Of a stretch of 64,000 nt of DNA, positions 18,381-35,800 are shown piece by piece (position 1 is the first letter of the stretch; each line of letters opens with the position of its first letter). The stretch lies in assembly GCF_009914755.1 (NCBI RefSeq), contig NC_060947.1. The stretch is one strand, 5' to 3'. A program made the translations under genes and the position numbers. This stretch comes from the human T2T-CHM13v2.0 reference genome, Homo sapiens. The notes under the pieces are model-generated. The model saw only the letters and a list, made by a program, of their open reading frames with translations, did not search any database and was not told the DNA's origin.

Positions 18381-18639
18381 CCTTCTTAACTATCCTTGGT
18401 AATTGGAATTGACTTTTTAAATGCTGGGTCAATTCTTCGAACACAAATTCCTGTCAAAATAATTACTGTTGTAGAATACAGTGCTATTTTTCCAAAATAT
18501 TCTCATCCCAATCCCATAACTCCTTGGAATATAAGAAATATAACAATATGTTCTTTAAAAAGTTTTATAAATCATAGATCCCACTGTTGCTTTACCTCCA
18601 TTTCTTCCTGCCTCTTTATAAGGAGTTCTAGGGATTTGA

Positions 18640-19090
18640 GGGCTTCTCAATGAAAAAGATAAAACCACAATAAGGTAGCACACACAAGCTTTATCTGGAC
18701 GACGCTTTGACAGGTTTGCATGTGGGGGAAGTCCCTCACAGCAAGAGACTATCCAGAGGCTTCCGTGCAGAAGGGTCATCCTTCAGAAAGTGAGGAAAGC
18801 AAGGAAACTTCTAGGGGAAAGAGGGATCAGAGAGGGGGGTTACATGTGTAGGTATTGTCACTTAGTCACAAGATGAAGAGTCTCTGGGTCAGAGATCTTC
18901 AGAGAGCAAAAACAGCTTGGGGCCTTTATAGCCCTGGAGTTTGTATCTTATCTATGGCTAGCAGATGCTGGGCATAGTTTCACTAGGTATAGAAAGCAGG
19001 AAAACTATAATTGGCTAAAAATTTGCTTATTTGGTCTATGCTTAAAAAATATTGAATGTACAAAAATTTGAGTTTGGTGCCCATGGGGTT
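18640..19090 (-). mobile_element. LTR-like element (family uncertain)
   Basis: About 450 bp with antisense polyA-signal-like gctttat and TATA-like cctttatag; resembles ERV1/ERVL solo LTRs. Confidence 0.4.
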
Positions 19091-19344
19091 TTGAAATAAT
19101 TAGACTCCGTCTGCTTTTCAAAAAATTAAAAATGAATAAATAAACCCTAGGGGCCCATATACAGAGGTCTATTTTTGGCTTATTTATGTAATACACTAAA
19201 TATATGCTACTACGAGTTGTTTTCTGTAAGGTTACAGTGTGTAGATGTATGGGTATTCTATCTGAGATGTTTCCACACTTGACTGTGCACTTTCTGTGAT
19301 CCAAATTCATGTCCCTTAGAAATCCATCTGGACATCACAATTTA

Positions 19345-19670: not shown

Positions 19671-21349
19671 TTTATGTGCTGAATCTATTCACTTATAAGG
19701 TTTTTAGTGTTGGTGCACTACATGAATTCAGGGCCAGTTAGGGTAACAGAGCCGTGGCTGTTGAAGGATGTGAATGTGAAGGTAGTGATACTTCGGAAGA
19801 ACGATCCAATGGATTCTAAGCCTAATGCCTTCATTGTCTTCAAGCCTGACTGGTTACGGTAAAGACCTATGGGAATGGTTTTCATGCACATGAGAAAAAT
19901 GGATTCAACCTCATGGCTGTGCCATGACTGCAGACCTGTGAGATATCTATAAAGCAGCATATCGTTGACATGATAGACCAGCCATTTTTTCCATGGCTGG
20001 AGATGTACATGAACTAATTTTTAATTGTGCTGATAGTCCAGCATATGTAGTACAAGGTGAACACAATGTAAGTGGTGCACACAGTGTAAGTGATGCTTGG
20101 AATACCCGGTCAACGATTACTTAGGCACCTTCACTGCAATCAGCCTGGGGTTCTATATAACAGGCTATTACAGGAGAGGTCATCAAATTCTCGGGAAGAA
20201 AGGCATTCCTAGTAGCTTGAGAAAACTGGTATTCCTTCAGGCTGTAAGGAAAAGATGAAGCATCACTATACTGAAATGATACACTAGTTATTCTTCTCAG
20301 GACTGGTGAGGTACATTACCTCAGGTGTGTTGTGGTCATTGTCCAGCCAGGGATGAACAATCTTACCAAAGGGCAAATGACTATGGGGATGATAAATCCA
20401 ATGCATTTTAGTGCAAGCAACTTCACTGCCATCAAGTTAGGAGGCAAAAGTGCGCAGTTACGAAAAAAGGCATCATGCATTTTGAGCAGAAAAGTTTTAG
20501 CCAGATGGTCTCAATGATCCTTTGGACTTCAGTGTAATACTTGAAACTGCACTGCCTTAAACTGATAGACCACCTATTCTTCCCAGGTCTGTACACAAAC
20601 TTAGGACCGGGTTTAGCATTATTCAGCACGTGTTATAGGATATGAACATACAAAGTGATACTTAGGAAGATTGATGTAATAGATTAAAAACTGGCATTTT
20701 CATTGCCATCAAGCCAGGCTGCATTCAATGGAGTGTTTAACAAGACAGATGTCAAACATCTGAACAGAAGGGATTCAGATCCATGGGCATAACATTCATT
20801 CTGACCTGTGAGGTACAACAGAAATAGCACCACAATGACATGATTTACTGTCCATTCTTCTCAGTGCTGGTGAAGTACATCCAGTGGAATGTAACGAGTC
20901 AGATGTCAGACATCTGAATAGAAGGGTGTCAGATTCATGGACATATCATTTTTATGACATGCGAGAAGAAACACAAATAGCACTACATTGACTTAACAGA
21001 CTGAACGTTCTTCCCATGGCTGGTGAAGTGCACGTCTAGCAGGTGCTGAAGGAGGTGAACACGGGCAGATGATGCTTGGGAAGAACAATCCAATGGATTA
21101 TAAACCAGGCACATTCATTGCCATAAAACTGTGCTATGTCCTGCAGGGCATTATGGGTGAACTCACTAAGCATTTTGAACAGAAGGGATACTGATTCATG
21201 TCCATGACATTGCTTCAAAACTGTGATGAACATCTGAAGCAGCAGTGTGATAACCTGGCAGGTTAGCCATTTTCCCTAGTGCTGATGTACTAAATTAACT
21301 TAGAGTTAGTTGTGTTCATTGTTCAACAGTTGCTGAAGAATATCTAAAG

Positions 21350-22995
21350 AGCTAAATTAATGCTTTACATGACCAATTCAGTTTTCCCAGAGCTGATTAA
21401 ATAAATAAACTCAAGGACATTTGTGGCCATTGGCCAACAGGAATGGAAGGCAGTAAACACAGGACAAGTGATGTTTTAGAAGAACAACTTTGGTGTGTGC
21501 TTCCTTGAGGTGGCCACCAGGGCCCACGAAATGAGTGGAATATAGGGGGTACTGCAGCAGTGTGGAGATGGGGCAAATCCAGACATGTTTCTTTTGCATC
21601 TTCTCAGGTACAAAATGCCAACCATAACTGTTTGTCAGCAAGAGAGACAGAGACTACAGATGACTATGGGGTAGATTCCCTGGTGGGAGGGCTCTGAACA
21701 TAGCTGGCAAGTGGGACTGATGCTGGTAGCCCTGGGAGCTACAAAGGAGTCTTGACAGGAAGAGACACTGACTCTAGAGTGGGCTTTGCTTACCCAGTGG
21801 AAGATTTAAATTCAGAGTGCCATTAACAAAACAAAACAAAAACAAACAAACAAACAGAACAAAAGATATTACATGGATTTGGACAGCTGATGGTCATTTC
21901 TTCAAACCAAGGAATACACTGTACATCCCATAATGTCCAATAATGTGCACAGAGATATCCTCCTCAGTGTAATAGTTTGATAGAGTAATAGAAGGGGGAG
22001 TTAAAACATTGGTTGTCTAAAACTGGGGGAAATGAAAGCATTCAGGGCTACCTTGTATGCCTTCAAGAGTGTGTGCTGACACTCAATATGAGTGGGACTA
22101 AAGGAGTGTCTTCACTAGATTTTCTGTTTTTCTGGTTCACCTGGGGAAGAGGAGGAGGGGAAGATGCTGGCATGACTGTGCAATTCTTGCCAAGGGAGGA
22201 GTACACTCGTATAACGAGTATAATTTTTTCTTTCTTCCCCAAATCACCTCAAATTTTTTTTTCTCCCCTACCTGATGCAGTGGTGCTAGGACTAGGGCTG
22301 CAATGACAAGTACTGGAAGCTGGGATGATTTCTAACCAAGAAACTGGGAAAATATTTTTAAACCTTCTGTCAGAATTTCTAAGGGCCTAAGGGGAGTGGA
22401 TTGTGCCTTCATCCCCATCTATCAAAACTGGGACTAAAAGTGAATGCAGCTATATTGCCTGATGGTAAAAATAGCTCACCAGCTCTGCACCTATGTAACT
22501 TTACCCTATTTGAATAGGAATGAACCGAGGAGGAAGTACTTACTAGGCTAGTATTGCTGCCTGCAATATAAACCAGCACACACGGTGGCAATTCTAGTGT
22601 TCCTTCCAAAGGTGAAAAAGTTTGAGAATTAATAGAGAGGAGAAATACTAGCTAAGGATAAAAAAAAAAGAATAAATGGTTTATAAATTGGGTAAATCTA
22701 ACATTACATTAACACCTTGAAAGGGACTCAGAGCAAGAGATGGCATTGTCTCTTAGCTCAATTATAACAGATGCCTGAATGGATGAAGCTGTTTGCCAAC
22801 ACCACTCCTGCTTTTGGAACCTGACAAGAGTGAAAGAAAGCTGGCAAACCTGAGTGGCCTTACCACGGGAGACAATAATACAATATGATGTACTGGACTA
22901 ATTATTAATGTTTAAATGGGATTCTAGTAATGTGGCAGTCTCTTTTGAGTTGCATGTCCTTTTGATATAAGGGATTCTCTGGGTTCAAAGACTGG
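21350..22995 (+). mobile_element. ERVL-class internal remnant (integrase and 3' region; HERV16/ERV3-16A3-like)
   Basis: From about 21770, DSRVGFAYPVEDLN...LHGFGQLMVISSNQGIH resembles the ERVL integrase core; no 5' LTR seen. Confidence 0.7.
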
Positions 22996-23435
22996 TGATA
23001 TTGGGAAATACGTTTTGGTCTTTGTCCCTGTTTCCTGGCATACAACTCCTAAAATCCTTAGAATCTCCAAAGTTTTGTCTTTTTGTATGCTAATGTTGAC
23101 TGGTAGCTTCAGGATGGGGACAGTTACTGGAAAGACAAAGGCATGATTAGAGGGTTGGGATTTTCAGCCCCATCCCCCCAACCTCTGAGAGCCCAAGGCA
23201 AATTTATCACCAATGGCCAATAGTTTAATTGATTATGCCTACATAACGAGGCCTCCATAAAAACCCAAGAGACAAGTTCAGAGAGCTTCCAGATAGCTGA
23301 ACATGTGGAGGTTCCTTGGGGGTGGTGCTCCCAGGAAGTGCATGGAAACTCTGTGCCTCTTCCCCCATTCCAAGCCCTATGCATCTCTTCAACTGTATCC
23401 TTTGTAATATGCTTTACAGTAAACCGGTAAACATT
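22996..23435 (+). mobile_element. MER21-type LTR, 3' truncated
   Basis: tgatattg...ttcctggcatacaactcctaaaatccttagaatctcc; ttccagatagctgaacatgtggagg. Confidence 0.75.
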
Positions 23436-23444
23436 TTTTAAAAA

Positions 23445-23600
23445 GGCCAGGCCAAATGACTCACACCTGTATTCCCAGCACTTTGGGAGGCCAAGGCAGG
23501 AGATTTGCTTGAGCCCTTGAGTTTGAGGCTGCAGTGAGCTATGATCATGTCACTGCACTTCTACGTGGGCAATAGAGTGATAAAACACGAAAAAAATAAA
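23445..23600 (+). mobile_element. Alu monomer (FLAM-like)
   Basis: About 135-bp Alu monomer with A-rich tail. Confidence 0.85.
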
Positions 23601-24343
23601 TCAATAACCATCAATTCAATCTGAGCTAGGCACTTTCATTGCCTTCAAGCTTGTCAGCTTAGGGTGGAAACTTAGAAGACAGGATGTTAAGTGCTTTGAG
23701 AAAAAAGAATTCAGCCTCAATACAATTCCTACAGGACTATGACGAACTCTGAAGCAGCACTGCATTGATATGACACATGAATCACTGTTCCCAAAGCAGA
23801 TGAAGGACAAAAACAAAAGACCAGTTCTAGCGACTGTCCAACAGACCATGTAGGGGATGACAAAAAGGTGAGTGATGCTCGGGTGAGTAATTCAATAGAT
23901 TCTCTTTAAGGCCTCATCATATCCATGAAGCTGGGAGGTATACAACAGGGGGTTACAAGAAAAGTGACCAGGCACACTCAGCAGAAACGATTCAGATTCA
24001 TGGGCAGAATGTGACTTTGGGACTTTGAGGAATACCAGAAGCAAACATAAATTGAAATGAAAGACTGTACAGTCTTCTGAGGAATAGTGTATTACATGAA
24101 TTCACAGCTGATTACAGCCTGTGTGAAACAGCAATAAAAAGAATTGAATACAGGGCAAGTGAGGCTTAAGGAGAGTTTACAGAGCAATGTAATCCAAGCA
24201 ACATTATTGCCAATGGCCATACTTCAATCGGAAAATTGTTACAGGAGAGTTCTTCATGTGCATTTATGAGATGAGAGCTGATTCACCATCATGAATCTTG
24301 AATTTTTTTTTTTTTTGGTCTCTGCAAAAAACCAGAAGAACCT

Positions 24344-24742
24344 TGATATGGTGTAGGATGATGTTTGTCCCCTCCAAATCTCATGTTGAAATGTGATCTC
24401 CAATGTTTGAGGTAAGGCCTGGTGGTAAGTGCTAGAGTTGTAGGGGTGGATCCCTCATGAATGCCTTGGTGCTGAAATGAGTGAGTTCTCACCCTATTAG
24501 TTACCAAGAGATTATAAAGAGCCTGGAACTTCCTCTATCTCGCTCCCTCTCCTGCCATGTGACATGCCTGCTCCCCGTTGCTCTCTGCCGAGTAAAAGCT
24601 TCCTGAGGTCCTTGCCTAACGCAGATGCTGGTGCCATGATTCCTGTACAGTCTACAGAACCATGAACCAAAATAAAGCTCTTAACTTTATAAATCACCCA
24701 GCCGCCGGTATCCTTTCTAGCAGCACAAAATGGACTACTACA
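24344..24742 (+). mobile_element. MST (MSTB-like) MaLR solo LTR inserted in an NME unit
   Basis: TG...CA ends, tttgtcccctccaaatctcatgttgaaatgtgat, aataaa; TSD aacct/aagct. Confidence 0.9.
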
Positions 24743-25589
24743 AAGCTCTACCATAACATGATACACTGCCATTATTCCAAAGATTCGTAAAGAACATTAA
24801 CTACCCATTGAATGTGGGCATGGTCAAGTAGCAGGTGATGTATTTGGACACAGTGTTAGTAAAGCCTGGGGAGACTTTTTGAATGAATTCAAACCCAGGC
24901 ACATTCCTTTCAATTAAATGGCATTGCATCCAGTAGAAGACAATAGAGCAAGTATCCAGTGCTGAAACAGAAAGGATAGATTCACTGACATAATAACATC
25001 CTTAGAGACAGTAAGGAAAATCTGGAGCAGCCCTACTCTGAAATGAAACATTGCACAATTTTCCAAGGACTGGTGAGTGACTGATAATTTAGGGCTAGAT
25101 TCTAAGAACAGCAATTTAAATGTCTTAAATGTGAATGAAATGCAATCTGGCCTTAAAGAAGAGGTCATCAAGCTTCCTGAGGACAGCAACAGGCGTCTCA
25201 TGAGCACATACTATTTTCTCAAGCACATGAAAACCCTTAAATAAGCAATTCGTTGACTTAAAAAGAAGCCGTTAACCACTACCTAGAAATAAATAATAAA
25301 TAACTTTGGTGAAAAGTCTAGCATCAATTTGAATAGGTGATCACAGGAGAATAATTTTTTCATAAAAAAAATAATCTGCACAAAGACACTGACATCTTCC
25401 TAATGCACACCTATGGAGCTCCCACTTTTTTGTTTATTCTTGGCCTATAGAAAATACAGGCCAGTGGTGAAAATCAGTTTAGAAAAGAATGAACATAGGG
25501 CTAAAAATCTGGAGTGAACACAGCTGAACTCTAAGCCAGAAAACATAATAGGCATGACACTAAACTTACTGAACAGGTTTTACAAAAGA

Positions 25590-28500
25590 AATTCAAGCAT
25601 CATATAAGAGGACAACCCAGAGGAGTTTGTAAAGCACTCTTAATACACAATCAGCCCCAAGATTATTGTACCCACGCCAAAAAATTTCCAAGAAGGTCAA
25701 CTGCAAAGATTCCACAGAAGGTATTCTGAGTGACTTCCAGTACACTGGGCAGGCGATGGGGAAAGACCTTAGACAATATGAACCACCCTTACAAACACAG
25801 TAGGATCCTCCTGTGCTTAACATGCTTTCTAATGCACGGGATAGCCCTAAAACAGCCAGTGTGCATTGAATACAAGACATGTTTTTGTTCAGGACCTTGA
25901 GAGTAATTATAAAGACTGACTGCAGTGCCTTACCCCTGAGGAACTGAAGACTTTGTGGACACAGAGCACGCTCCCAGTGCCAGGAACCAAAGAACCTTTC
26001 AGTGACCAACACGATGCCTTGGGAGGCAAGATGGTCCTGTCGCACAAGAGGAGTAATTTGAACATGCTGAAAACCCCCAACAGGAAGCTAGGCCTGGGAC
26101 CCTCAGCATGGCGTGCTCACTGCCATCAAAACAAGCATCATACACAAGGGAAGCACAGAGTTCAAAAGGCATTACCCAAAGGGGCAATCAGCCTCGCAGA
26201 TATGCCATTTTAATCTGGTCATCATGGAATGACCTTTCACTCACCTGCTGTAAATGGGGGAACATCCTGGTAAGTGGGAGTTCACATCTTACACACCTTC
26301 CACCAGAATGACTGTAAGCATTCCTGACAGGGCTGCACGCATGCCCAGCAATTGAGAAGACTGTCAATCCCGAAGTTTCCAAAAGGAAACCAACAAAAAA
26401 TAAGGCACTCCAAGTGGCACCCGGTAAAAAGACAGATAATAGGGCCCAATCTGAGAATTCACCAACTGACTTTCGAAATAGAGTGGGATCCTCCCAGACT
26501 TACCATTCTGTAATGCACTGGACAGCCCCCAAAAGCAAATATGGATTGAAGGGAAGACACCAGTGGTCCCAAATCTGGACAATAATTGTCACAAGTGCCC
26601 AGGGGGTGCGGCACTCCTGAGGAACTGAAGGCTGAGTGAACGGGGAGTGAGTTTCTAAGGCCAGACACAGAGCAACCTTTCAGTGCCCATTTTGAGACCC
26701 CGTGAGGGAAGAAGGTCTTGCCTCCCACGAGGAACAGTCTGCACTTACACAGCACTCCTGAGAGGAGGCTCTGCATCTGCATGAAATCCCTGCATGGCAC
26801 GTTCACTGAAATTGAAAGACGCATCATACAAGAGGGCAACCCAGAGGAGTTTTTAAAGCATTCTTACACCAGGACAATCAGCCCTGAGATTGCTGTATCC
26901 ATTCACCACAACTTGCTGGAACAGCAATCCCATGGTTTGCAAAAGAGGCATTCCAGGTGACTGTCAAGCACCATGGGTGGGCAGTGGCAACAGACCAGAC
27001 AGGTTATCAACCACTGTTAGAAGCAGGGTAGGATCCTCCTTTGCTTAACATGCTTTCTAGTGCAGAGGACACCCCTAAGAAAGCAAATGGTCATTGAACA
27101 GAAGCCACCTGTTATTCAGGACCTTGAAAGCAATCATAATGAGTGACTGGGGTACACCACTCATGACAAGCCAGAGCCTGTGTGGACATAGAGCGAGTTT
27201 CTAATGCCAGGAACCAGGAAACATTTGAGTGACCCGACACCTGATCCTAAGAGTCAAGACAGTATAGTCTCATGTGACAAATAATTAAAATGTACTGAAA
27301 GCTCCCAAAAGGAAGCTATGCCTGGGGCCATCAGCATAATGTGTTCATTGCCATCAAATGAGCATCACACAAAAGGACAACCCAGAGATGTGTTGAAAGC
27401 ATTATTGAAACAGTACAATCAGCCTTGAGATTTCTGTACCCATCCTCCCAAATTTACAGGAACCCCCAACTCCAGATTCCCAAAAAGGCATTCTGGGTGA
27501 CTGCCAGCACCATAGGCAGTCAATGAGGACAGACCCGGGTGGCCATTGGCCACTGTTATTAGCAGAGAACAACCCTCCTGTGGGTAACCTGCTTCCTAAT
27601 GCACTGGATCACCCTAAAGAAGCCAATGTGCATTGAATTGAAGCCACCTGTTGTGCAGTTCCTTGAAATTAACTGTAGCAAGGGCCCCGGGACTCATCAC
27701 TGCTGAGACACTGAAGGTTGAGGCAAGAGGATCTTGCCTCACATGACAAGTTGTCTGAACGTACAGAACACTCCTGAGAGAAAACTCTGTGTGAAATCCC
27801 TGCGTGGCAAGTTCATTTCCATCAAAACAAGCATCATGCAAAAGGGCAATCCAGAGCAGTTTTGAAGGCACTTTTAAAATGGGACAATCAGCCCTGAGAT
27901 GGCTGGATCCACGGCCAACAATTTCCAGGAAGGCCAGTCGCAAGGATTCCACAGAAGGCATTCAAAGTGATTTCCAGCACCCTGGGCAGGCAACGGGGAC
28001 AGATCCGAGAGGTCATCAAACCCCACTACTAACACAGTAGGATCCTCCTGTGGGTAACGTGCTTTCTTTCTAATGCACTGGATATCCTTTAAAAGAGCCA
28101 ATGTCCATTGAAAACAAGCCATGTTTTTGTTCAGGACCTTGAGAGTGATTTTAGGGTGAGGTTCCATGATGCAATGGTGAGCACTCTGGACTCTGACAGT
28201 AATTTTCATGAGCGACTGGGGTGCCTCACTCCCTGAGAAACTGAAGACTTTATGTACGCAGAGCGAGATTCCAATGCCAGGAACCAAGGAACCTTTCAGT
28301 GACCAACACGATGCCCCGGGAGGCAAGATGGTCTTGTCTGACAAGAGGAATAATTTGAACATGCCGAAAACCCCCAACAGGAAGTTAGGCTTGGGACCCT
28401 CAGCATGGCGTGCTCACTGCCATCAAAACAAGCATCAAACACAAGAGAAACATAGAGGAGTTCAAAAGGCATTGCTCAAAGGAGCAATCAGCCTTGCAGA

Positions 28501-29320
28501 TATGCCATTTTAATCTGGTCATCATGGAATGACCCTTTTACTCCCCTATTGTAAATGGGGGAACAACCTGGTAAGTGAGAGTTCACATATTATATGCCTT
28601 CCACCAGAATGACTGTAAGCACCCCTGAGAGGACTTACACATGCCCAGTGATTGAGAAGACTGCAAATCCCAAAGTTTCCAAAAGGAAAACAACAACAAA
28701 AAGGCACCCCAAGTGGCACCAGTAAAAAGACAGGCAATGCGGACCAACCCAAGAAGTCACCAACCAACTTTCGAAACAGAGTGAGATTCTCCCAGGCTTA
28801 CCATTCTGTAATGTACTGGATAGCCCTCCAAAAGCAAATGTGCATTGAAGAGAAGCCACCGGTGGTACCAAATCTGGACAATAATTGTCACAAGTGCCCT
28901 GGAGTGCAGCACTCCTAAGGAACTGAAGGCTGAGTGAACGGGGAGTGAGTTTCTAAGGCCAGGCACAGAGCAACCTTTCAGTGCCCATTTTGAAACCCTG
29001 CGAGGGATGAGGGTCTTGCCTCCCATGAGGAACAGTCTGCACTTACACAGCACTCCCGAGAGGAAGCTCTGTATCTGCATGAAATCCCTGCACAGCACAT
29101 TCACTGAAATCGAAAGAAGCATCATACAAGAGGGCAACCCAGAGGAGTTTTTAAAGCATTCTTATACCAGGATAATCAGCCCTGAGATTGCTGTATCCAT
29201 TCACCACAACTTGCTGGAACAGCAATCCCATGGTTTTCTGAAGAGGCATTCCGGGTGACTGTCCAGGACCACTGGCAGGCAATGTGGGCAGACTGGAAAG
29301 GTTACCAACCTCGTTTACAC
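25590..29320 (+). repeat. Higher-order repeat: ~470-690 bp monomers with a ~2.3 kb duplication period
   Basis: Monomer starts at 26116, 26802, 27344, 27812, 28413, 29100; 26116->28413 = 2297 and 26802->29100 = 2298; near-identical ORFs 26718-26960 and 29007-29258. Confidence 0.92.
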
Positions 29321-30150
29321 TGAATTATAGAGAAGTTGGTTTTGCTCACCCTAAGGTTTTTTTCAAGAAATGTGTCTGCCGTGACAGACCCATCAGTAAT
29401 TGCACGTGTGCTGTGATTTAGTATTTGGCCCTAACTTTTTACTTCTCTCATTCATGCCTTGGTTACATTCTTGAGACATTATCAGGACCAAATGAAACAA
29501 TCATTTTGAGGTTATTTTAGAAATGATCAAGCAGATTCCTGAACCTCTTCAGTGCCATAAATTTACCAAAAGCAGCACTACTGTGAAATGCCAGATCGGC
29601 CATTCTTCATAGGTCTGGTGAAGTACATGACTCCATGGTGAGTTGTTCCTATTGTCAAACTGGCATTGAAATCTTTCAATACAGAGTGAGTGAATCTGGG
29701 AAAGAACAATGCAATGTAGTTTACTCCTGGCACCATCATTACCATCAAGCTGGGAGGTCTGAAGCAGGCATTAGCAATGAGGTCGCCAAAAAGTGCAGAA
29801 TCTGAATCCTTTCTGCACTTTCGCTCCCTGTTCACTCAACCTTCAGTTCCTCAGGAGTGCTGCACTTTTGGTGCAGAAAGGATTCAGATTCTTGCCCATG
29901 TTGTTCCTTCTGACCTGTGAGGAAAATATGAATCCTCTTTACACTGACCTTATAGACTGCTCTTTCTTCTCAGTGCTGGTAAGTACATGAATGTAGACCA
30001 GTTTTGGCCATTGACCAGCAGGTGGTGAAGGTGGTGAAAACAAAGGGTTGCAAAGAGTACCGTTATGGGTTGAATTTTCCTTTGTGTTCATCGCCACCAA
30101 TAAAAGAAACGGTAAAATGTTTAAGTAAATAACTAAATAATAATTATATT

Positions 30151-30575
30151 TGTCTAGCGTGTCCATGTGAAGAGACCACCAAGAGGCTTTGTGTGAGCAA
30201 CAAGGCTGTTTATTCACCTGGGTGCAAATGGGCTGAGTCAGAGAAAGGAGTCAGCAAAGGGAGTTAGGGATGGGGCAGTTTTATAGGACTGGGGTAAGCA
30301 GTGGAAAGTTACAGTTAAAGTGGGTTTTTCTATTGCAGGCAGGGGTGGGGGTCACAAGGTGGATGGTGGGGAGATCAGAAGACTCATTGTCCAGAAGAAG
30401 AATGTCACGAGGTCAATTGATCAATTGGGACAGGGCAGGAACAAGTCATAATGGAATGTTGTAAGGTTGGTCAATCAGTTAAGACAGGAGCTGGCTGTTT
30501 CCCTTCTTTTGTACTTTTTGGTTGCCTCAGGCCATCTAGACGTATACGTGCAGGCTTGGGCTCAGAGGCCTGACA
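30151..30575 (-). mobile_element. HERV-H 3' LTR (LTR7 family, LTR7C-like)
   Basis: tgtcaggcctctgagcccaagcc start on the minus strand; about 91% identical to the 5' LTR by manual count. Confidence 0.93.
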
Positions 30576-30813
30576 TTTCTGTCTTCTTATATTAATAAAT
30601 AAAATACAACAAAATAGTGGTGAAGTGTTGGGGCGGCAATTTTTTTTTTGGGGGCGGTGGTATGGAAGGACAATGGGCGATGTTTCTCAGGGCTGCATCA
30701 AGCAGGATTAGGGGCTGCATGGACACGTTAAAGAAAATTTTATAATGAGTTACATGGAATAGGAGTTTAGGCTGTAGGGAGATCTTGGGGCAGAGAATGG
30801 TACCGTGGGGTTA

Positions 30814-32515
30814 TTAAAAGTAGCATTTGTCATATAGAATGATTGGCGATGGTCTGAATGCAGTTTTGTATGAATTGAGAAACCAAATGGAAGACACAAG
30901 GCCCAAATAAGAGAAGAAGAAAAACAGGTACCAGGAGACTAAGAATTGGGAGGACCCAGGACGTCCAATGAGAGAGTGCCCAAGGGGGTTCAGCATAATT
31001 ACTTGCTTGGTTGGCGAGTTTTTGGGCTCTATCCTTGAGTTTTTTTATGTTGTCATACACCAGGCCAGATTGATTTAGGTAAAAGCAACACCCTTCATTT
31101 AAAAATGTACAAAGTTCTCCTTTTTCAGCAGTGAGTAAGTCAAGGCCTCGCGGTTTTGGAGGAAAACTGCAGTTAAAGAGTTAACCTGGGCCTGAAGGAC
31201 TGATAGAGTTTGTGATATGTCTGCTATGCTAGCAGAGAAGGCATTAGAGAAGCTACGGAAGGTCGTGACAGAGGTTGAAATGCCTGCTATTCCAGTTCCA
31301 AGAGCAATAGTGGAGGCAGAAAGTCCTAAACCGACAAGCAGGGGAATTAGTGGAATAACCTTTTTTCGTGTTGGTGTCATGAGGAGAACAGGAAGCTCTT
31401 CGGTCCCATTTGCAAATTGAATTTTGGGAGTAATGTAAACTAGTGTGTATGTGCCTGTCTAATTAGCAGGTAGACACATGTAGGTAGAGGATCCACAGTG
31501 GAAGAAGAGACCTTGTTCAAGGCAAAACTGGAAATACATAGTAAAAAGATGAGAAGAAGTACTAAAAGAGGTGTCTTGTACCCAGACTCCTAGGGATCCA
31601 GGTAGGGCGGCAGCCATCAGAGGTTGTAATGGGGACTGATGGGATAACTGCGTAGAGGGGGAGGTTCAATTTTCATAATGTATGAGAAAATGTCGAGTGT
31701 CTACGGCAACCTTTCACTATTATTTACGGGGCTGGGTATAAGCAAACAAGAAGAGGCCTGGGAGGAGAGTCTGATGAGCAAGGGGAAGGTAGCCAAGGAT
31801 GGAGTGAAATACAGGGTAAGTATCTTCCTAAGCAATAATAACTGCTGATGTTTTTAGGTTTGCCAGTATTGATAGAGGGCTTATCTGTAATACGGAGCTG
31901 GAAGGCCCCAATTGTTTCAGTGATGTGTGTAGTTGGGCTTTGGAGATGAAGAGTGAAGGAACATTGAGAAGGTGAAAGGTTACCCAGCGGAATTCCAGTG
32001 GGTCTTTGTCGAGAGATACATAAAGGAGCGGCCACAGGAATAGTAGTATTTTGTGTTGTGAGGGGTCCAAATATGGGGGGAGCAGAGTTGATGTAAGGAG
32101 AAAGGTTTTCTAAGTAAGTGTGGAGAAGGGCGGCAGCTTGCTTATGTGAAATGTCTGGGGAGGTCTTGCTGGACCTGTCCAGAAAGTAAAGAAGTTCTTC
32201 AGGAGGGTAAAGGTGAGGGCTGTTAAAGGAAGTTCGGAGGTGTAGGGAGGCAGATGTTGCCCAGTCTGTATGTAAGGTGGGGACAGCTGTGTAGGTGCAG
32301 GAAGAAAGGGAAATGCAAAGCCAGCAATTGTTTGCTAAGGAGGGATTAGAAACGGCTAGGAGAGAGTGAGTGAGATTGATAGTGTGGTGGACATAGCTGG
32401 GGAGAGGTAGAGGGTGGCATAAGAATGGGAATGAGAATAAGAGTGAGTATAAAAGTAAACAATAGAACTTCATCAGAGTGAAAGTACTGGAGGGTGCCCT
32501 GCCAGCAAAGATCAT
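30814..32515 (-). pseudogene. env: HERV-H env (frameshifted)
   Basis: MIFAGRAPSSTFTLMKFY signal region, CWLC motif, fusion peptide VIPLIPLLVGLG, LQNR start of the immunosuppressive domain; split across ORFs 31724-32515, 31099-31380, 30814-31060. Confidence 0.9.
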
Positions 32516-32849
32516 CTATCCACTCCAAGAGGGAGTCAAGAGTGGCGGTTTGGGGATAGCACCAGGAGATATCAGCTGTGATGGCTTGGAGAGGAAGTGT
32601 AAACTGGCAGTGTAAACAAGAGTAGAGCATCTATGAGTAGTTGAGAATGGTGAATCAGAGTATGACTAGACAGAAGATAGTAGGGATGACAAGTTTTGGG
32701 GGCACAGTCAAAGTAGTGGGGGTGACTGCGTAGAGCCCTGCTGTAAAAAGTAGTAGGGTAAGGATGAATAGACCTAATAGAATAAAGGAATGTATTAGGC
32801 TCATAAGGGTTATTACTATTCTTCAGAAATGTGAGTGAATTTAAGGGAA

Positions 32850-35800
32850 GTAGGGGAGAGTACTTGTGACTTCCAGGAGGAAGAGGAGAGATCAGGTTGG
32901 CTGTCCAACGGACACAGCTTTATTCCGGAACAGTGAACCCAATGGGGAGGGTCCTGCAGGCAGACGACAGTTGGGGTACTACAGATGACCAAGTAGGATC
33001 CAGTCCATCGAGGCTATAGAGTTTGAGGGGTCAGATTCTTAATAAGAACTGATTGTCCAGCTAGGGTGTCTTCATATTGCTGGGAATCTGGAGTAGGCAA
33101 GAGAAGATTAGCAGCCTGGCGAATTTCCTGTCTAGCCTGCTGGAAGACTGGAAGATAGTCGCCTAGAGGGTTGGTGTCTGGGACGAGGTTGGGGCCGACC
33201 AAGAAAGTGCATCCATATAAAAGTTCAAATGGACTGTACTCTGTAGCATCTCGAGGACAGGCTTTAATTCTGAGAAGGGCAAGAGGTAAAAGTACTGTCC
33301 AGTCCTTTTTAAGTTGGAGGCTGAGCTTGGCGAGGTGTGTCTTTAAAAGATCATTAGTCCGTTCTACCTTTCCTGAAGATTGAGGACGGTAAGGGGTATG
33401 AAGGTCCCACTGAATATCAAGAGCCTGAGAAACTGCTTGGGTGATTTGACTAATAAAGGCCGGTCCGTTATCAGACTGTATAGAGGTGGGAAGGCCAAAC
33501 CAAGGAATTATGTCTGACAGAAGGGAAGAAATGACCGCGGTGGCCTTCTCAGACCCTGTGAGAAAGGCCTCTACCCATCCAGTTAAAGTGTCTACCCAGA
33601 CCATGAGGTATTTTAGTTTCCTGTCTCAGGGTATGTGACTAAGTCAATTTGCCAGTCCTGGGCAGGGGCAAATCCCCAAGCTTGCTGTGTAGGGAAGGGA
33701 GGGGGCCTGAACAATCCCTGAGGAGTAGTAGAATAGCAGATGGAACACTGAGAAGTGATTTCCTTGAGGATAGATTTCCATGATGGAAAGGAAATGTGAG
33801 GTTCTAAGAGGTGGGCTAGCAGCTTGTAATCTGCATGGAAGAGGTTATGAAATGATGACAGAATAGAATGGGCCTGTGAGGTTGGAAGGAGATATTTTCC
33901 TTGGTCCAAGAACTACTTGCCTTGTGTGGGAAGAGATTGATAGGTTCAAGTTTCAGTGGGAGAACAGGTGGGAGTGACCAATGAGGAGAAAAACTGGCCA
34001 TGGGGGACAGAAGTTAGAAAGCTAACTGCTTGTTTAGCTGTCTTATCAGCATAATTGTTGCCTTGAGCAATGGGATCTGATGCCTTTTGATGGCCCTTGC
34101 AGTGAATGACTCCAGCTTCATTTGGAAGTAAAGCGGCCTTGATAAGAGTTTTTATTAAAGAGGCATTGATGATGGAGGACCCTTGCATAGTGAAAAAACC
34201 TCTTTCAGCCCATATAACAGCATGGCAGTGCAGGATATGGAAGACATATTTAGAGTCAGTATAAATAGTGACATGTAGTCCTTTTGCAAGAAAGTGACGG
34301 CCTGAGTTAAGGCAATGAGTTTGGCTTGCTGAGAGGTAGTGGAGGGGGGCAGAGTGGTAGCCTCAATGATAGATGTGGAAGATACTATAGCATGGCCTGC
34401 CTTTGCTGGTGAATGGCGATTAGGCCTGGAGGAACTTCCATCAATAAACCAAGTGTGATCAGGGTGAGGAACAGGAAAGAAGGAAATATGGGGAAATCGA
34501 GTGAATGTCAGGTGGATCAGAGGGATACAGTCATGGGGTAAGCTGTGGTATCTGGAATACTGTGGGAGGCCGGATTGAAGTCTGGGCCAGGAACAATGGT
34601 AATTGTGGAGACTCAACAAAGAGTGAGTATAGCTGAAGGAGCCAGGGAACAGAAAGTATATGCGTCAGGTGTGAGAAAGAAAACAGATTTTGGAAGTTAT
34701 GAGAACTGGAGAGTGAGTTGAGCATAGTTTGTGATTTTAGGGGCCTCTAAAAGTATTAAAGCAGCGGCAGCCACCGCACATAGACATAATGGCCAACCTA
34801 AAACAGTAAGGTCAAGTTGTTTGGACAAAAAGACTACAGGGCGCAGTCCCAGTCCTTGTGTAAGAATTCCGACTGCACAGCCCTGCACTTCGGCTGTGTG
34901 TAATGAAAAGGGTTGGGATGAGTCAGGGAGAGCTAGTGTGGGAGCAGTCTCTAAAGCTGTCTTCGAGGAATGGCAAGAGGAGTGGGGAAAGGATTTAGGA
35001 TCTATGGGGTCAGCTAGGTTTCCCTTTGTGAGTTTATATAATGGTTTTGTTAGGATGGCAAAACCAGGTATCCAAAGGTGAAAGTATCCAACCATGCCCA
35101 GGAAAGAAAGGAGTTGTTGTTTTGTAGAAGGGGTTGGGGTTTGAGAGATCAGCTGGACACGATCGGCAGGGAGAGCCAGCATGTTTTCATGAAGAATTAT
35201 GCCAAGGTAGGTAAGGAATGGGGAAGAAATTTGAGCTTTGGAGGGGGATACCCAATATCCTTTGGAGAATAAATGTTGAAGGAGCAGGAGGGTATCTTAT
35301 TGAGAAGACTCAAAGGAAAGACTACAAAATAAAAGGTCATCAATGTATTGAATAAGGTGGGAAGCAGAGGGGTGGAAAGAGAGTAAATCATGAGAAAGGG
35401 CTTGGCTGAAGTAATGAGGGCTGTCCTGGAAGCCTTGGGTGAGTACAGCCCAGGTAAGTTGCTGGGACTGATGGGTGTCAGGGTCAGTCCAGGTAAAAGC
35501 AAAGAGGGGCTGGGATGAGGGATGCAGGGGAATAGTGAAAAAAGCGTCTTTAAGATCAAGAATGGAATACTGAGTTGTGGAGGGAGCTATTGAGAACAAA
35601 AGAGTGTATGGGTTGGGCACCATAGGGTGTGGATAGGCAAAACAATTTGGTTGATAAGATGCAGATCCTGAACCAGCCTGTAAGACTTGTCCAGTTTTTG
35701 GACAGGTAAGATGGGGGAATTGTAAGGAGAGTTTGTAGGCTTTAGAAGCCCATGCTGTAGCAGGCAAGTGATAACAGGCTTTAATCCCCTTAAAGCCTGT

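What the first reader, a model, noticed from the sequence alone, without database searches (positions are those of the whole stretch)
19690..30105. 10-kb tandem array built from a retroposed NME2 (NDP kinase) coding fragment
Seen: at least 12 clearly recognisable ~280-300 bp head-to-tail units, plus more diverged ones at 25.6-29.3 kb. Each reads TF(I/T)AIK...FEQKGF...HLKQHY..L.D.PFF.GLVKYM..GPV...VMLG..NP.DSKPGT on the plus strand. The ORF track misses them because every unit carries stops or frameshifts. Known: EHLKQHY and YMNSGPV are NME2 rather than NME1 residues, and NME genes have introns inside this region, so intronless units imply an mRNA-derived source. Inference: a processed copy was amplified into a protein-coding-derived satellite. 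It may be the relic of a former multi-NDK-repeat ORF, or a source of NME1/2-complementary RNA. Ordinary processed pseudogenes are single copies, so this architecture is unusual.
Basis: partly seen in the sequence, partly recalled or inferred. Interest (0 to 1): 0.92.

Follow-up and report, generated by a model that had tools for sequence, protein, structure and literature searches.

The report
Decayed tandem array of NME2 retrocopy fragments
An intronless 288-base piece of the NME2 (nucleoside diphosphate kinase B) message was copied head to tail on the human X chromosome long ago and has since decayed into a broken, apparently functionless fossil array.

Summary
A DNA profile built from the units finds 14 significant same-strand pieces, 8 near full length and 6 partial. 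They lie at 19701-21487, 23630-25162 and 29565-30045 and total about 3.3 kb.

Each unit equals NME2 coding bases 22-309 (96 codons, F8-T103). Units are joined head to tail at a 5-base microhomology, GCACC. The unit crosses two NME2 intron positions without introns. It is NME2-like rather than NME1-like: 36 against 9 diagnostic sites.

The units average 55% identity to one another and changes fall evenly on all three codon positions. 13 of 14 pieces carry stops or frameshifts. Two interspersed repeats inserted later split the array.

The 25.6-29.3 kb stretch is not a run of 290-bp NDK units. It is a separate 535-bp repeat of about 7 copies with no protein-level NDK match. It keeps the unit-start motif in phase and shows weak collinear similarity, so it probably descends from the units.

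I found no support for a former open reading frame or for RNA complementary to NME2. Verdict: an ancient, neutral, single-locus pseudogene array of modest interest.

The parts
19701..19808 (+). U01, partial NME2 unit (unit positions 165-272); left edge of the array
   Evidence: nhmmer E=2.6e-18; tblastn NME2 aa 64-101
19828..20124 (+). U02, full NME2 unit
   Evidence: nhmmer E=6.8e-57; 5 in-frame stops and 2 frameshifting indels
20125..20416 (+). U03, full NME2 unit
   Evidence: nhmmer E=8.3e-57; aligns to CDS nt 17-288
20417..20693 (+). U04, full NME2 unit
   Evidence: nhmmer E=4.5e-53; aligns to CDS nt 17-307
20694..20880 (+). U05, partial unit (positions 1-187)
   Evidence: nhmmer E=1.3e-47; exact copy of the 15-nt start motif at 20699
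20879..21108 (+). U06, partial unit (positions 30-272); closest pair with U05 at 70% identity
   Evidence: nhmmer E=1.9e-43; pairwise matrix
21109..21380 (+). U07, full NME2 unit. The junction ORF 21027-21194 reads NDK residues 84-104 and then 5-32
   Evidence: nhmmer E=4.1e-60; PDB alignment of the junction
21378..21487 (+). U08, partial unit (positions 159-268)
   Evidence: nhmmer E=5.4e-20
21494..23437 (.). Interspersed repeat inserted at a unit boundary, about 1.95 kb, family not named. An Alu-like fragment follows at about 23444-23580
   Evidence: Copies 72-78% identical on many chromosomes; 7005 first-look candidates, 40 scored. The array resumes at unit position 1 at 23630
23630..23910 (+). 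U09, full NME2 unit
   Evidence: nhmmer E=1.3e-56
23911..24190 (+). U10, full NME2 unit
   Evidence: nhmmer E=9.3e-57
24191..24359 (+). Degenerate first half of a unit, not significant on its own
   Evidence: nhmmer 24235-24344 to unit positions 39-143, E=1.3. Its phase fits U11 on the far side of the insertion
24360..24742 (.). Second interspersed repeat, about 385 bp, inserted inside a unit
   Evidence: Copies 72-75% identical genome-wide; 6007 candidates, 40 scored
24744..24898 (+). U11, partial unit (positions 133-265), continuing the unit split by the insertion
   Evidence: nhmmer E=9.5e-23
24899..25162 (+). U12, full unit and the most decayed (58% identical to the consensus)
   Evidence: nhmmer E=1.4e-40; identity
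25163..25596 (+). Locus-specific stretch with weak matches to both repeat profiles (25142-25294)
   Evidence: Short-unit profile E=0.64; 535-unit profile E=0.0085; no other copy in the genome
25597..29319 (+). Secondary tandem array of a 535-bp unit, about 7 copies: 25597-26129, 26135-26812, 26821-27357, 27362-27825, 27831-28426, 28432-29111, 29119-29319. Probably descended from NME2 units
   Evidence: nhmmer E down to 5.5e-159; found only at this locus; profile-profile score 28.1 against 15.8+-1.8; start motif in phase in 4 units
29320..29564 (+). Locus-specific stretch ending in a start-motif remnant at 29548-29562 (3 mismatches)
29565..29729 (+). U13, partial unit (positions 124-272)
   Evidence: nhmmer E=5.1e-33
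29730..30045 (+). U14, unit positions 1-245. It holds an inverted 46-bp piece of the 535-bp unit at 29821-29866
   Evidence: nhmmer E=3.9e-55; inverted piece E=7.3e-10
30087..30101 (+). Possible start of a further unit at the right edge (start motif, 3 mismatches). An ERV-like repeat begins at about 30140

Best explanation
This is a fossil of a retroposed NME2 message. A 288-base internal piece of the spliced coding sequence (CDS bases 22-309, residues F8-T103) became a head-to-tail repeat. The repeat junction lies at a 5-base direct repeat, GCACC, which occurs in NME2 at bases 17-21 and 305-309.

- The simplest route (inferred) is one illegitimate duplication between these two microhomologies in a processed copy, followed by unequal crossing-over up to at least 15 units.
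- The array was never, or only very briefly, constrained as coding. It decayed neutrally: the units are now about 55% identical to each other, GC fell from 59% to 41%, and all 16 CpGs of the source are lost.
- Two interspersed repeats later inserted into the array.
- A decayed block of the array probably became a new 535-bp unit that was amplified about 7-fold more recently.
- An ERV-like element now bounds the right edge.

Shown: NME2 origin, absence of introns, the junction, the neutral substitution pattern, the insertions, and that the array is a single locus. Inferred: the order of events, the mechanism of the first duplication, the great age, and the lack of function.
For: - **Homology.** Pfam NDK E=1.4e-13, + strand only. 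tblastn with NME2 gives E down to 1.8e-12. The unit profile against NME2 cDNA gives E=1.9e-61.
- **NME2, not NME1.** 195.8 against 126.2 bits. All 16 segments tested score higher on NME2, including two marginal ones at 26/22 and 32/28. The consensus agrees with NME2 at 36 of 52 diagnostic sites, with NME1 at 9 and with neither at 7.
- **Intronless.** In this genome NME2 introns lie after codons 42 and 76 and inside codon 114. The units run uninterrupted from CDS nt 17 to about 309.
- **Junction.** GCACC lies at nt 17-21 and 305-309. Nine junctions were read in the window. One ORF reads residues 84-104 and then 5-32.
- **Neutral decay.** Unit-to-consensus differences by codon position are 0.297/0.265/0.302 (p=0.14). 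For comparison, NME1 against NME2 gives 6/3/47 differences. 13 of 14 pieces have stops or frameshifts. Pairwise identity averages 54.8%, and adjacent units are no closer at 54.7%.
- **Older than the insertions.** Copies of the inserted repeats are 72-78% identical to each other, while the units are about 55% identical. Unit phase continues across both insertions.
- **Single locus.** A genome-wide DNA search with 1.8 kb of the array finds only itself, NME2P1, a chr9 NDK pseudogene and NME2 exon 3.
- **The 535-bp unit is related.** Profile-profile score is 28.06 against 15.84+-1.82 for permuted columns (0 of 100 reach it). Reversed, reverse-complement and complement controls give 17.0, 16.9 and 11.6. 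Its consensus matches the unit start at 18 of 21 bases. Against real-sequence controls the score is 34.5 against 20.5+-3.7 (0 of 120 reach it). The start motif sits in phase in 4 units.
Against: - No poly(A) tract, target-site duplication or any other part of the NME2 cDNA was found in the window. This covers bases 1-21 and base 310 to the end, including the 3' UTR. The 'processed copy first, duplication later' order therefore rests on inference, and a circular or template-switch origin fits equally well.
- The founder unit shows no shared frameshift relative to NME2, and 288 is a multiple of 3. A short coding phase cannot be excluded.
- The link between the 535-bp unit and the NME2 unit is weak taken copy by copy. 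nhmmer gives E=1.2 and 5.2 on single copies and E=0.17 profile-to-consensus. A frameshift-tolerant protein alignment scores 34 against 30.6+-4.2. The best real-sequence control reached 31.2 against 34.5.
- The age rests on identity values alone and is inflated by the fast decay of a GC- and CpG-rich insert. No other species could be examined.
Confidence: 0.78

Rival explanations
1. The tandem structure arose before or during insertion, not by later duplication. A 288-base circle, either RNA or extrachromosomal DNA closed at the GCACC microhomology, was copied by a rolling circle. Alternatively, a reverse transcriptase jumped repeatedly between the two GCACC sites, and a ready-made multimer integrated.
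For: Only CDS bases 22-309 are present anywhere in the window. No 5' or 3' remainder of the cDNA flanks the array, as a pure multimer would predict. The junction is a short microhomology. The units form a star-like burst with no neighbour effect.
Against: Both array edges are damaged: the left edge starts in mid-unit, and an ERV-like repeat abuts the right edge. Lost flanks would explain the missing cDNA ends just as well. The junction is not at exon borders, so canonical back-splicing is excluded. No tool here can tell the two routes apart.
Confidence: 0.17
2. The 535-bp repeat at 25597-29319 is unrelated DNA that landed in, or arose beside, the NME2 array. It shares only a short captured piece of a unit.
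For: There is no NDK signal at protein level. nhmmer between the two families is not significant (E=0.17). Consensus identity is only about 45%. The margin over real-sequence controls is modest (34.5 against a maximum of 31.2).
Against: The collinear, nearly gapless alignment over 290 positions beats 100 of 100 permutations and all three orientation controls. The start motif matches at 18 of 21 bases. By my own arithmetic that is about 4e-6 by chance in one 534-base unit on one strand. The repeat has the same strand as the units, is embedded between NME2 units, and has no copy elsewhere in the genome.
Confidence: 0.2
3. The array is the wreck of a gene that once encoded a protein of repeated 96-residue NDK fragments.
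For: The unit length is exactly 96 codons and the founder has no shared frameshift. The 535-bp profile has 534 positions, which is also a multiple of 3.
Against: Codon positions show no bias after amplification. Differences between the consensus and NME2 are also nearly even: 20/93, 17/95 and 27/94. The unit stops at residue 103 and lacks the segment with histidine 118 that NDK catalysis needs; the sequence is and the catalytic role is recalled. No start, splice or promoter feature was identified. A multiple of 3 arises by chance one time in three.
Confidence: 0.04
4. The array works at RNA level, for example as antisense or piRNA-like transcripts against NME2/NME1 made from the minus-strand lncRNA whose intron contains it.
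For: The hub's table places the array, which is in NME2-sense orientation on the + strand, inside an intron of a minus-strand lncRNA. Antisense NME2-like RNA is therefore presumably transcribed.
Against: The longest exact match to NME2 cDNA is 16 nt and to NME1 13 nt. The best 24-nt window is 21/24. There is no Rfam family in 18-32 kb. Decay looks neutral. No paper mentions the lncRNA.
Confidence: 0.03

Closest known systems
Processed pseudogenes of NME2, such as the intronless copy on chromosome 12 (NME2P1; the name is recalled, the locus is L001)
   Same: It is an intronless copy of the spliced NME2 message, and disabling mutations are present here as well.
   Different: The chr12 copy is single, collinear and full length, with an open 151-residue reading and 92-97% DNA identity to the NME2 exons. 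The X-linked element holds only CDS bases 22-309, repeated at least 14 times, at about 60-66% identity to NME2.
D4Z4 macrosatellite carrying the DUX4 retrogene
   Same: Both are tandem arrays whose unit contains retroposed coding sequence. The 'D4Z4-encoded retrogene DUX4' wording comes from abstracts listed.
   Different: From recall, D4Z4 units are about 3.3 kb, highly homogeneous, CpG-rich and hold a complete ORF. Here the unit is 288 bp and only a fragment of a coding sequence. The units are about 55% identical, have lost their CpGs and are dead.
circRNA-derived pseudogenes (Dong et al. 2016, PMC4897178; passages read)
   Same: Both have a non-collinear junction in which a downstream part of the message is followed by an upstream part.
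   Different: Their defining junction joins exon ends at a back-splice site. Here the junction lies inside exon 4 and inside exon 2, at a 5-base microhomology.
Higher-order repeat formation in satellite DNA (general knowledge, recalled)
   Same: A multi-unit block with deletions becomes a new, longer unit that is amplified later and is more homogeneous. Here the 535-bp units are 74-88% identical to their consensus, against 58-77% for the 288-bp units.
   Different: The parent monomers had already decayed almost beyond recognition before re-amplification, so the relationship is only statistically detectable.

Membership tests
NDK domain (Pfam PF00334) homology | Significant match to the family profile above the curated cut-off | tested here: met
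   51.3 bits against a cut-off of 27, E=1.4e-13, + strand frame; profile positions about 3-100 only
Functional NDK domain | Presence of the C-terminal third of the domain, which holds the catalytic histidine (H118 in NME1/2; the catalytic role is recalled) | tested here: not met
   Units end at residue 103. There is no hit to residues 104-152 and no DNA match to CDS nt 310 to the end
Processed (retroposed) pseudogene | Exons joined without introns | tested here: met
   Introns lie after codons 42 and 76 in the chr17 gene. The units are continuous across both positions
Processed (retroposed) pseudogene | 3' end of the message with a poly(A) tract, and flanking target-site duplications | tested here: not met
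   No 3' cDNA part is found anywhere in the window. Both array edges are truncated, so loss cannot be told from original absence
circRNA-derived pseudogene | Non-collinear junction exactly at back-spliced exon borders (PMC4897178) | tested here: not met
   The junction joins CDS nt 309 (inside exon 4, nt 229-341) to nt 22 (inside exon 2, nt 1-126)
Tandem repeat / satellite | Head-to-tail copies of one unit in one orientation | tested here: met
   14 pieces, all on the + strand, in continuous phase. Not detectable by Tandem Repeats Finder
Retrogene-bearing macrosatellite (D4Z4 type) | Each unit holds a complete open reading frame and the units are highly similar | tested here: not met
   The unit is a 96-codon fragment. 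13 of 14 pieces are disabled. Mean pairwise identity is 54.8%
Small-RNA source against the parent gene (Stellate/Su(Ste)-like; recalled analogy) | Long stretches of near-perfect complementarity to the parent mRNA, and small RNAs mapped to the array | tested here: inconclusive
   Complementarity is poor: longest exact run 16 nt, best 24-nt window 21/24. Small-RNA data cannot be examined with these tools

The most novel reading that the evidence does not exclude
The array is a pure multimer of a 288-base circle cut from NME2 mRNA at a GCACC microhomology and copied by rolling-circle reverse transcription. On this reading it integrated ready-made before the radiation of placental mammals. It would then be a fossil record of a non-back-splice circular-RNA (or microDNA) route to satellite birth. 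Its exact 96-codon period might also have allowed a short-lived repeat protein.
Probability: 0.1. Interest if true: 0.6.

Novelty: new member of a known kind. Interest (0 to 1): 0.3.

Why it matters
This is a clean, datable example of how a piece of a protein-coding message can seed a tandem repeat. The junction microhomology is still readable, a second-generation longer unit has arisen from decayed monomers, and later transposon insertions act as time marks.

It has practical value for annotation. Neither Tandem Repeats Finder nor the RefSeq table supplied with the finding marks the region, so about 7 kb of apparently 'unique' X-chromosome DNA is in fact repeat-derived.

It does not appear to be a gene or a regulator, and nothing found here suggests any effect on NME2. 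I found no paper describing it, but those cover only open-access full text. Repeat libraries and the GENCODE pseudogene set could not be consulted.

Tried and rejected
- **Tandem Repeats Finder on 17-33 kb.** It returned only an 18-bp microrepeat, because the units are too diverged.
- **The search for homologous proteins with the junction ORF ('longer').** 3 candidates, none scored. The library seems to lack close eukaryotic NDKs, so I took references from the window's own genome instead.
- **First Pfam call on raw frames.** It failed on stop codons, so I repeated it with stops read as X.
- **Apparent C-terminal NDK motifs in the 535-bp unit.** I thought I saw 'DSV-K-SA'-like and 'KPEEL'-like strings by eye. 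I rejected them because the frameshift-tolerant alignment of its consensus to NME2 scores 34 against 30.6+-4.2 for shuffles. The profile alignment also places those bases opposite a different part of the unit. A permissive alignment to full NME2/NME1 cDNA ran on through the UTRs, so its extent is not trustworthy.
- **Long minus-strand ORFs in the 535-bp array (179, 164 and 134 aa).** They have no paralogue outside the locus and no Pfam family. There is no clear three-base periodicity of substitutions (0.210/0.201/0.171, p=0.044, with no single phase elevated). I rejected them as coding.
- **Literature.** There are no hits tying NME2 pseudogenes to an X-linked tandem array. 'NME2P2' occurs in two papers without a location. 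There are no hits for LOC105373150.
- **Failed scripts.** One script ended with an index error after printing its main results.

Full report

Yes in substance, but it is smaller and more fragmented than described.

- Tandem Repeats Finder sees no array in 17-33 kb.
- A seed-and-extend repeat search shows many 60-75% identical direct repeats spaced 262-306 bp apart at 19.8-21.3, 23.6-24.1, 24.9-25.1 and 29.5-30.0 kb. It also shows a second repeat system with spacings of about 470-690, 1228 and 2298 bp at 25.6-29.3 kb.
- With stops read as X, Pfam NDK (PF00334) matches one + frame at E=1.4e-13 (51.3 bits, cut-off 27) and another at E=7e-4. The third + frame and the three - frames show nothing.
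- A DNA profile built from eight units and iterated to convergence finds 14 significant pieces, all on the + strand. They lie at 19701-21487, 23630-24175, 24744-25162 and 29565-30045. No significant piece lies elsewhere in the 64-kb window.
- Eight pieces are near full length and six are partial. Together they hold 3269 bases.

**2. What are the units?**

The window's own genome can be searched. PF00334 finds the NME1 and NME2 exons on contig 17 and an intronless full-length copy on contig 12. I fetched the chr17 region and rebuilt both coding sequences from their exons.

- NME2 introns lie after codon 42, after codon 76 and inside codon 114.
- Every unit aligns to NME2 CDS bases 17 to about 309 with no interruption at the first two intron sites. 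The source was therefore spliced RNA.
- One window ORF (21027-21194) matches solved NDK chains at residues 84-104 and then immediately at residues 5-32.
- At DNA level the junction is the word GCACC. It occurs in NME2 at bases 17-21 and again at 305-309, exactly 288 bases apart.
- The unit is thus CDS 22-309, or 96 codons (F8 to T103).
- It lacks the last third of the domain, including histidine 118. The position is read; its catalytic role is recalled.

**3. NME2 or NME1?**

NME2.

- The unit profile scores 195.8 bits (E=1.9e-61) on NME2 cDNA against 126.2 bits on NME1.
- All 16 segments tested align with a higher score to NME2. Two marginal segments score only 26/22 and 32/28.
- At the 52 aligned sites where the genes differ and the unit consensus is defined, the consensus agrees with NME2 at 36, NME1 at 9 and neither at 7.
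- Passages of Desvignes et al. 2009 (PMC2777172) place the NME1/NME2 duplication around the amniote radiation. They also describe NME2 as closer to the ancestor. Part of the NME2-likeness could therefore be ancestral, but the agreement at mostly synonymous sites argues for a post-duplication NME2 source.

**4. State of decay and selection.**

- Units are 58-77% identical to their consensus and 48-66% identical to NME2. The consensus is 218/282 identical to NME2.
- Mean pairwise identity is 54.8% (range 35-70%, 86 pairs). Adjacent units are no closer at 54.7%. This is a star-like pattern with no later homogenisation.
- Differences from the consensus fall on codon positions 1, 2 and 3 at 0.297, 0.265 and 0.302 (chi-square p=0.14). 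NME1 against NME2 differ at 6, 3 and 47 sites.
- The consensus-to-NME2 differences are also nearly even, at 20/93, 17/95 and 27/94.
- All 16 CpGs of the source are gone, and GC fell from 58.8% to 41.4%.
- 13 of 14 pieces carry an in-frame stop or a frameshifting indel. No indel is shared by the units, so the founder's frame was intact.

The pattern is neutral evolution since amplification. A brief early coding phase cannot be excluded, but nothing supports it.

**5. What fills the rest of the 10.4 kb?**

- 21494-23437 is an interspersed repeat with copies 72-78% identical on many chromosomes. An Alu-like fragment follows it.
- 24360-24742 is a second interspersed repeat with copies 72-75% identical.
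- Unit phase continues across both repeats (268 | insertion | 1, and about 143 | insertion | 133). They therefore inserted into an existing array.
- Copies of these families are far more alike than the NME2 units are to each other, so the array is older than those insertions. This assumes neutral decay.
- 25163-25596 and 29320-29564 have no other copy in the genome.
- The left flank holds an old repeat at 18616-19202. An ERV-like element starts at about 30140.

**6. The 25.6-29.3 kb block.**

This is a separate tandem repeat of a 534/535-bp unit, about 7 copies.

- Copies are 74-88% identical to their consensus.
- It contains an internal 1.45-kb duplication at 82% identity.
- It is found nowhere else in the genome, by DNA search or by its longest ORF.
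- At protein level it shows no NDK signal. There are 0 PDB matches at E<=10 in each + frame. There is no tblastn hit better than E=9.5. A frameshift-tolerant alignment of its consensus scores 34 against 30.6+-4.2.

Several results still tie it to the NME2 unit:

- A profile-profile alignment is collinear and almost gapless over 290 positions (130/291 identical). It scores 28.06 against 15.84+-1.82 for 100 column permutations, none of which reaches it.
- Reversed, reverse-complement and complement controls give 17.0, 16.9 and 11.6.
- A second segment aligns to unit positions 1-150 and begins with 18 of 21 matches to the unit start.
- Against 120 real segments of the window, the consensus scores 34.5 against 20.5+-3.7, with a maximum of 31.2.
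- The 15-base start motif, allowing up to 3 mismatches, occurs 15 times in the window against 3.95+-2.03 expected. Six hits are in short units and four sit in the same phase of 535-bp units. Two more lie at 29548 and 30087.

I read the block as a second-generation unit built from roughly two decayed monomers with deletions, with a probability of about 0.8. It is wrong on period and on recognisable NDK content.

**7. How it arose.**

The shown elements are a spliced NME2 fragment, a microhomology junction, a burst-like amplification, neutral decay, later insertions and a secondary amplification.

The first duplication is inferred. One route is illegitimate recombination or replication slippage between the two GCACC words in a processed copy, followed by unequal crossing-over. 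The other is a multimer made before integration, by a circular template or reverse-transcriptase template jumps.

The second route gains some weight because no other part of the cDNA is detectable anywhere in the window. Both array ends are truncated, however, so the absence is not decisive.

Canonical back-splicing is excluded because the junction lies inside exons 2 and 4. The defining feature comes from PMC4897178; the exon limits come.

**8. Function.**

None is indicated.

- The longest exact match to NME2 cDNA is 16 nt, and the best 24-nt window is 21/24.
- There is no Rfam family in 18-32 kb.
- Substitution patterns show no coding periodicity in either repeat.
- According to the hub's table, the array lies in NME2-sense orientation inside an intron of a minus-strand lncRNA. 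Antisense copies are therefore presumably transcribed as intronic RNA. I could not examine expression.

**9. Age.**

Pairwise identity of 55% corresponds to roughly 0.34 substitutions per site per lineage by my Jukes-Cantor arithmetic. That is comparable with the oldest recognisable mammalian repeats (recalled), so the array probably predates the placental radiation. The estimate is inflated by the rapid decay of a GC- and CpG-rich insert. It needs comparative genomes, which these tools do not hold.

**10. Novelty and verdict.**

The mechanism classes are known: retroposition, microhomology duplication, unequal crossing-over and higher-order repeat birth. I found no description of this locus in open-access full text. 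Repeat libraries and the GENCODE pseudogene set were not available, so it may carry an annotation I could not see.

It is a new member of a known kind. It is a tidy evolutionary fossil and a useful annotation point, but not a functional element on present evidence.

Noticed in passing
window 29821-29866 (- strand relative to the 535-bp unit), inside NME2 unit U14: A 46-bp piece of the 535-bp repeat (unit positions 330-375) lies inverted inside the last full NME2 unit (nhmmer E=7.3e-10). It accounts for the extra length of that unit. How an inverted fragment got there is unexplained.
   Followed up: partly
window 30140 onward; ORF 30830-31180 on the - strand: An ERV-like interspersed repeat bounds the array on the right. 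Copies elsewhere are 78-88% identical. A 116-aa stop-free stretch on the - strand looks like a retroviral envelope transmembrane region; that resemblance is judged by eye and was not tested.
   Followed up: partly
window 25593-26087, 26459-26863, 27874-28413 and 28757-29161, all on the - strand: The 535-bp array has unusually long stop-free stretches of 164, 134, 179 and 134 aa on the strand opposite to NME2 sense. They have no paralogue outside the locus and no Pfam family. There is no clear codon periodicity. The profile length of 534 is a multiple of 3.
   Followed up: partly
G000 C9:84426293-84426653, C9:111062168-111062547 and C2:47710483-47710978: There are further NDK-like matches where several parts of the Pfam profile lie within a few hundred bases, some with stops. 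They look like other processed NME pseudogenes. One of them may be the 'NME2P2' named in two papers without a location.
   Followed up: no
window 20056-20096: An 18-bp unit is repeated 2.3 times inside NME2 unit U02. This is the only array Tandem Repeats Finder reports in 17-33 kb.
   Followed up: no
window 29500-34500: There is strong positive GC skew (0.19-0.47) across the ERV-like region to the right of the array. AT skew of about +0.2 runs across the 535-bp array.
   Followed up: no
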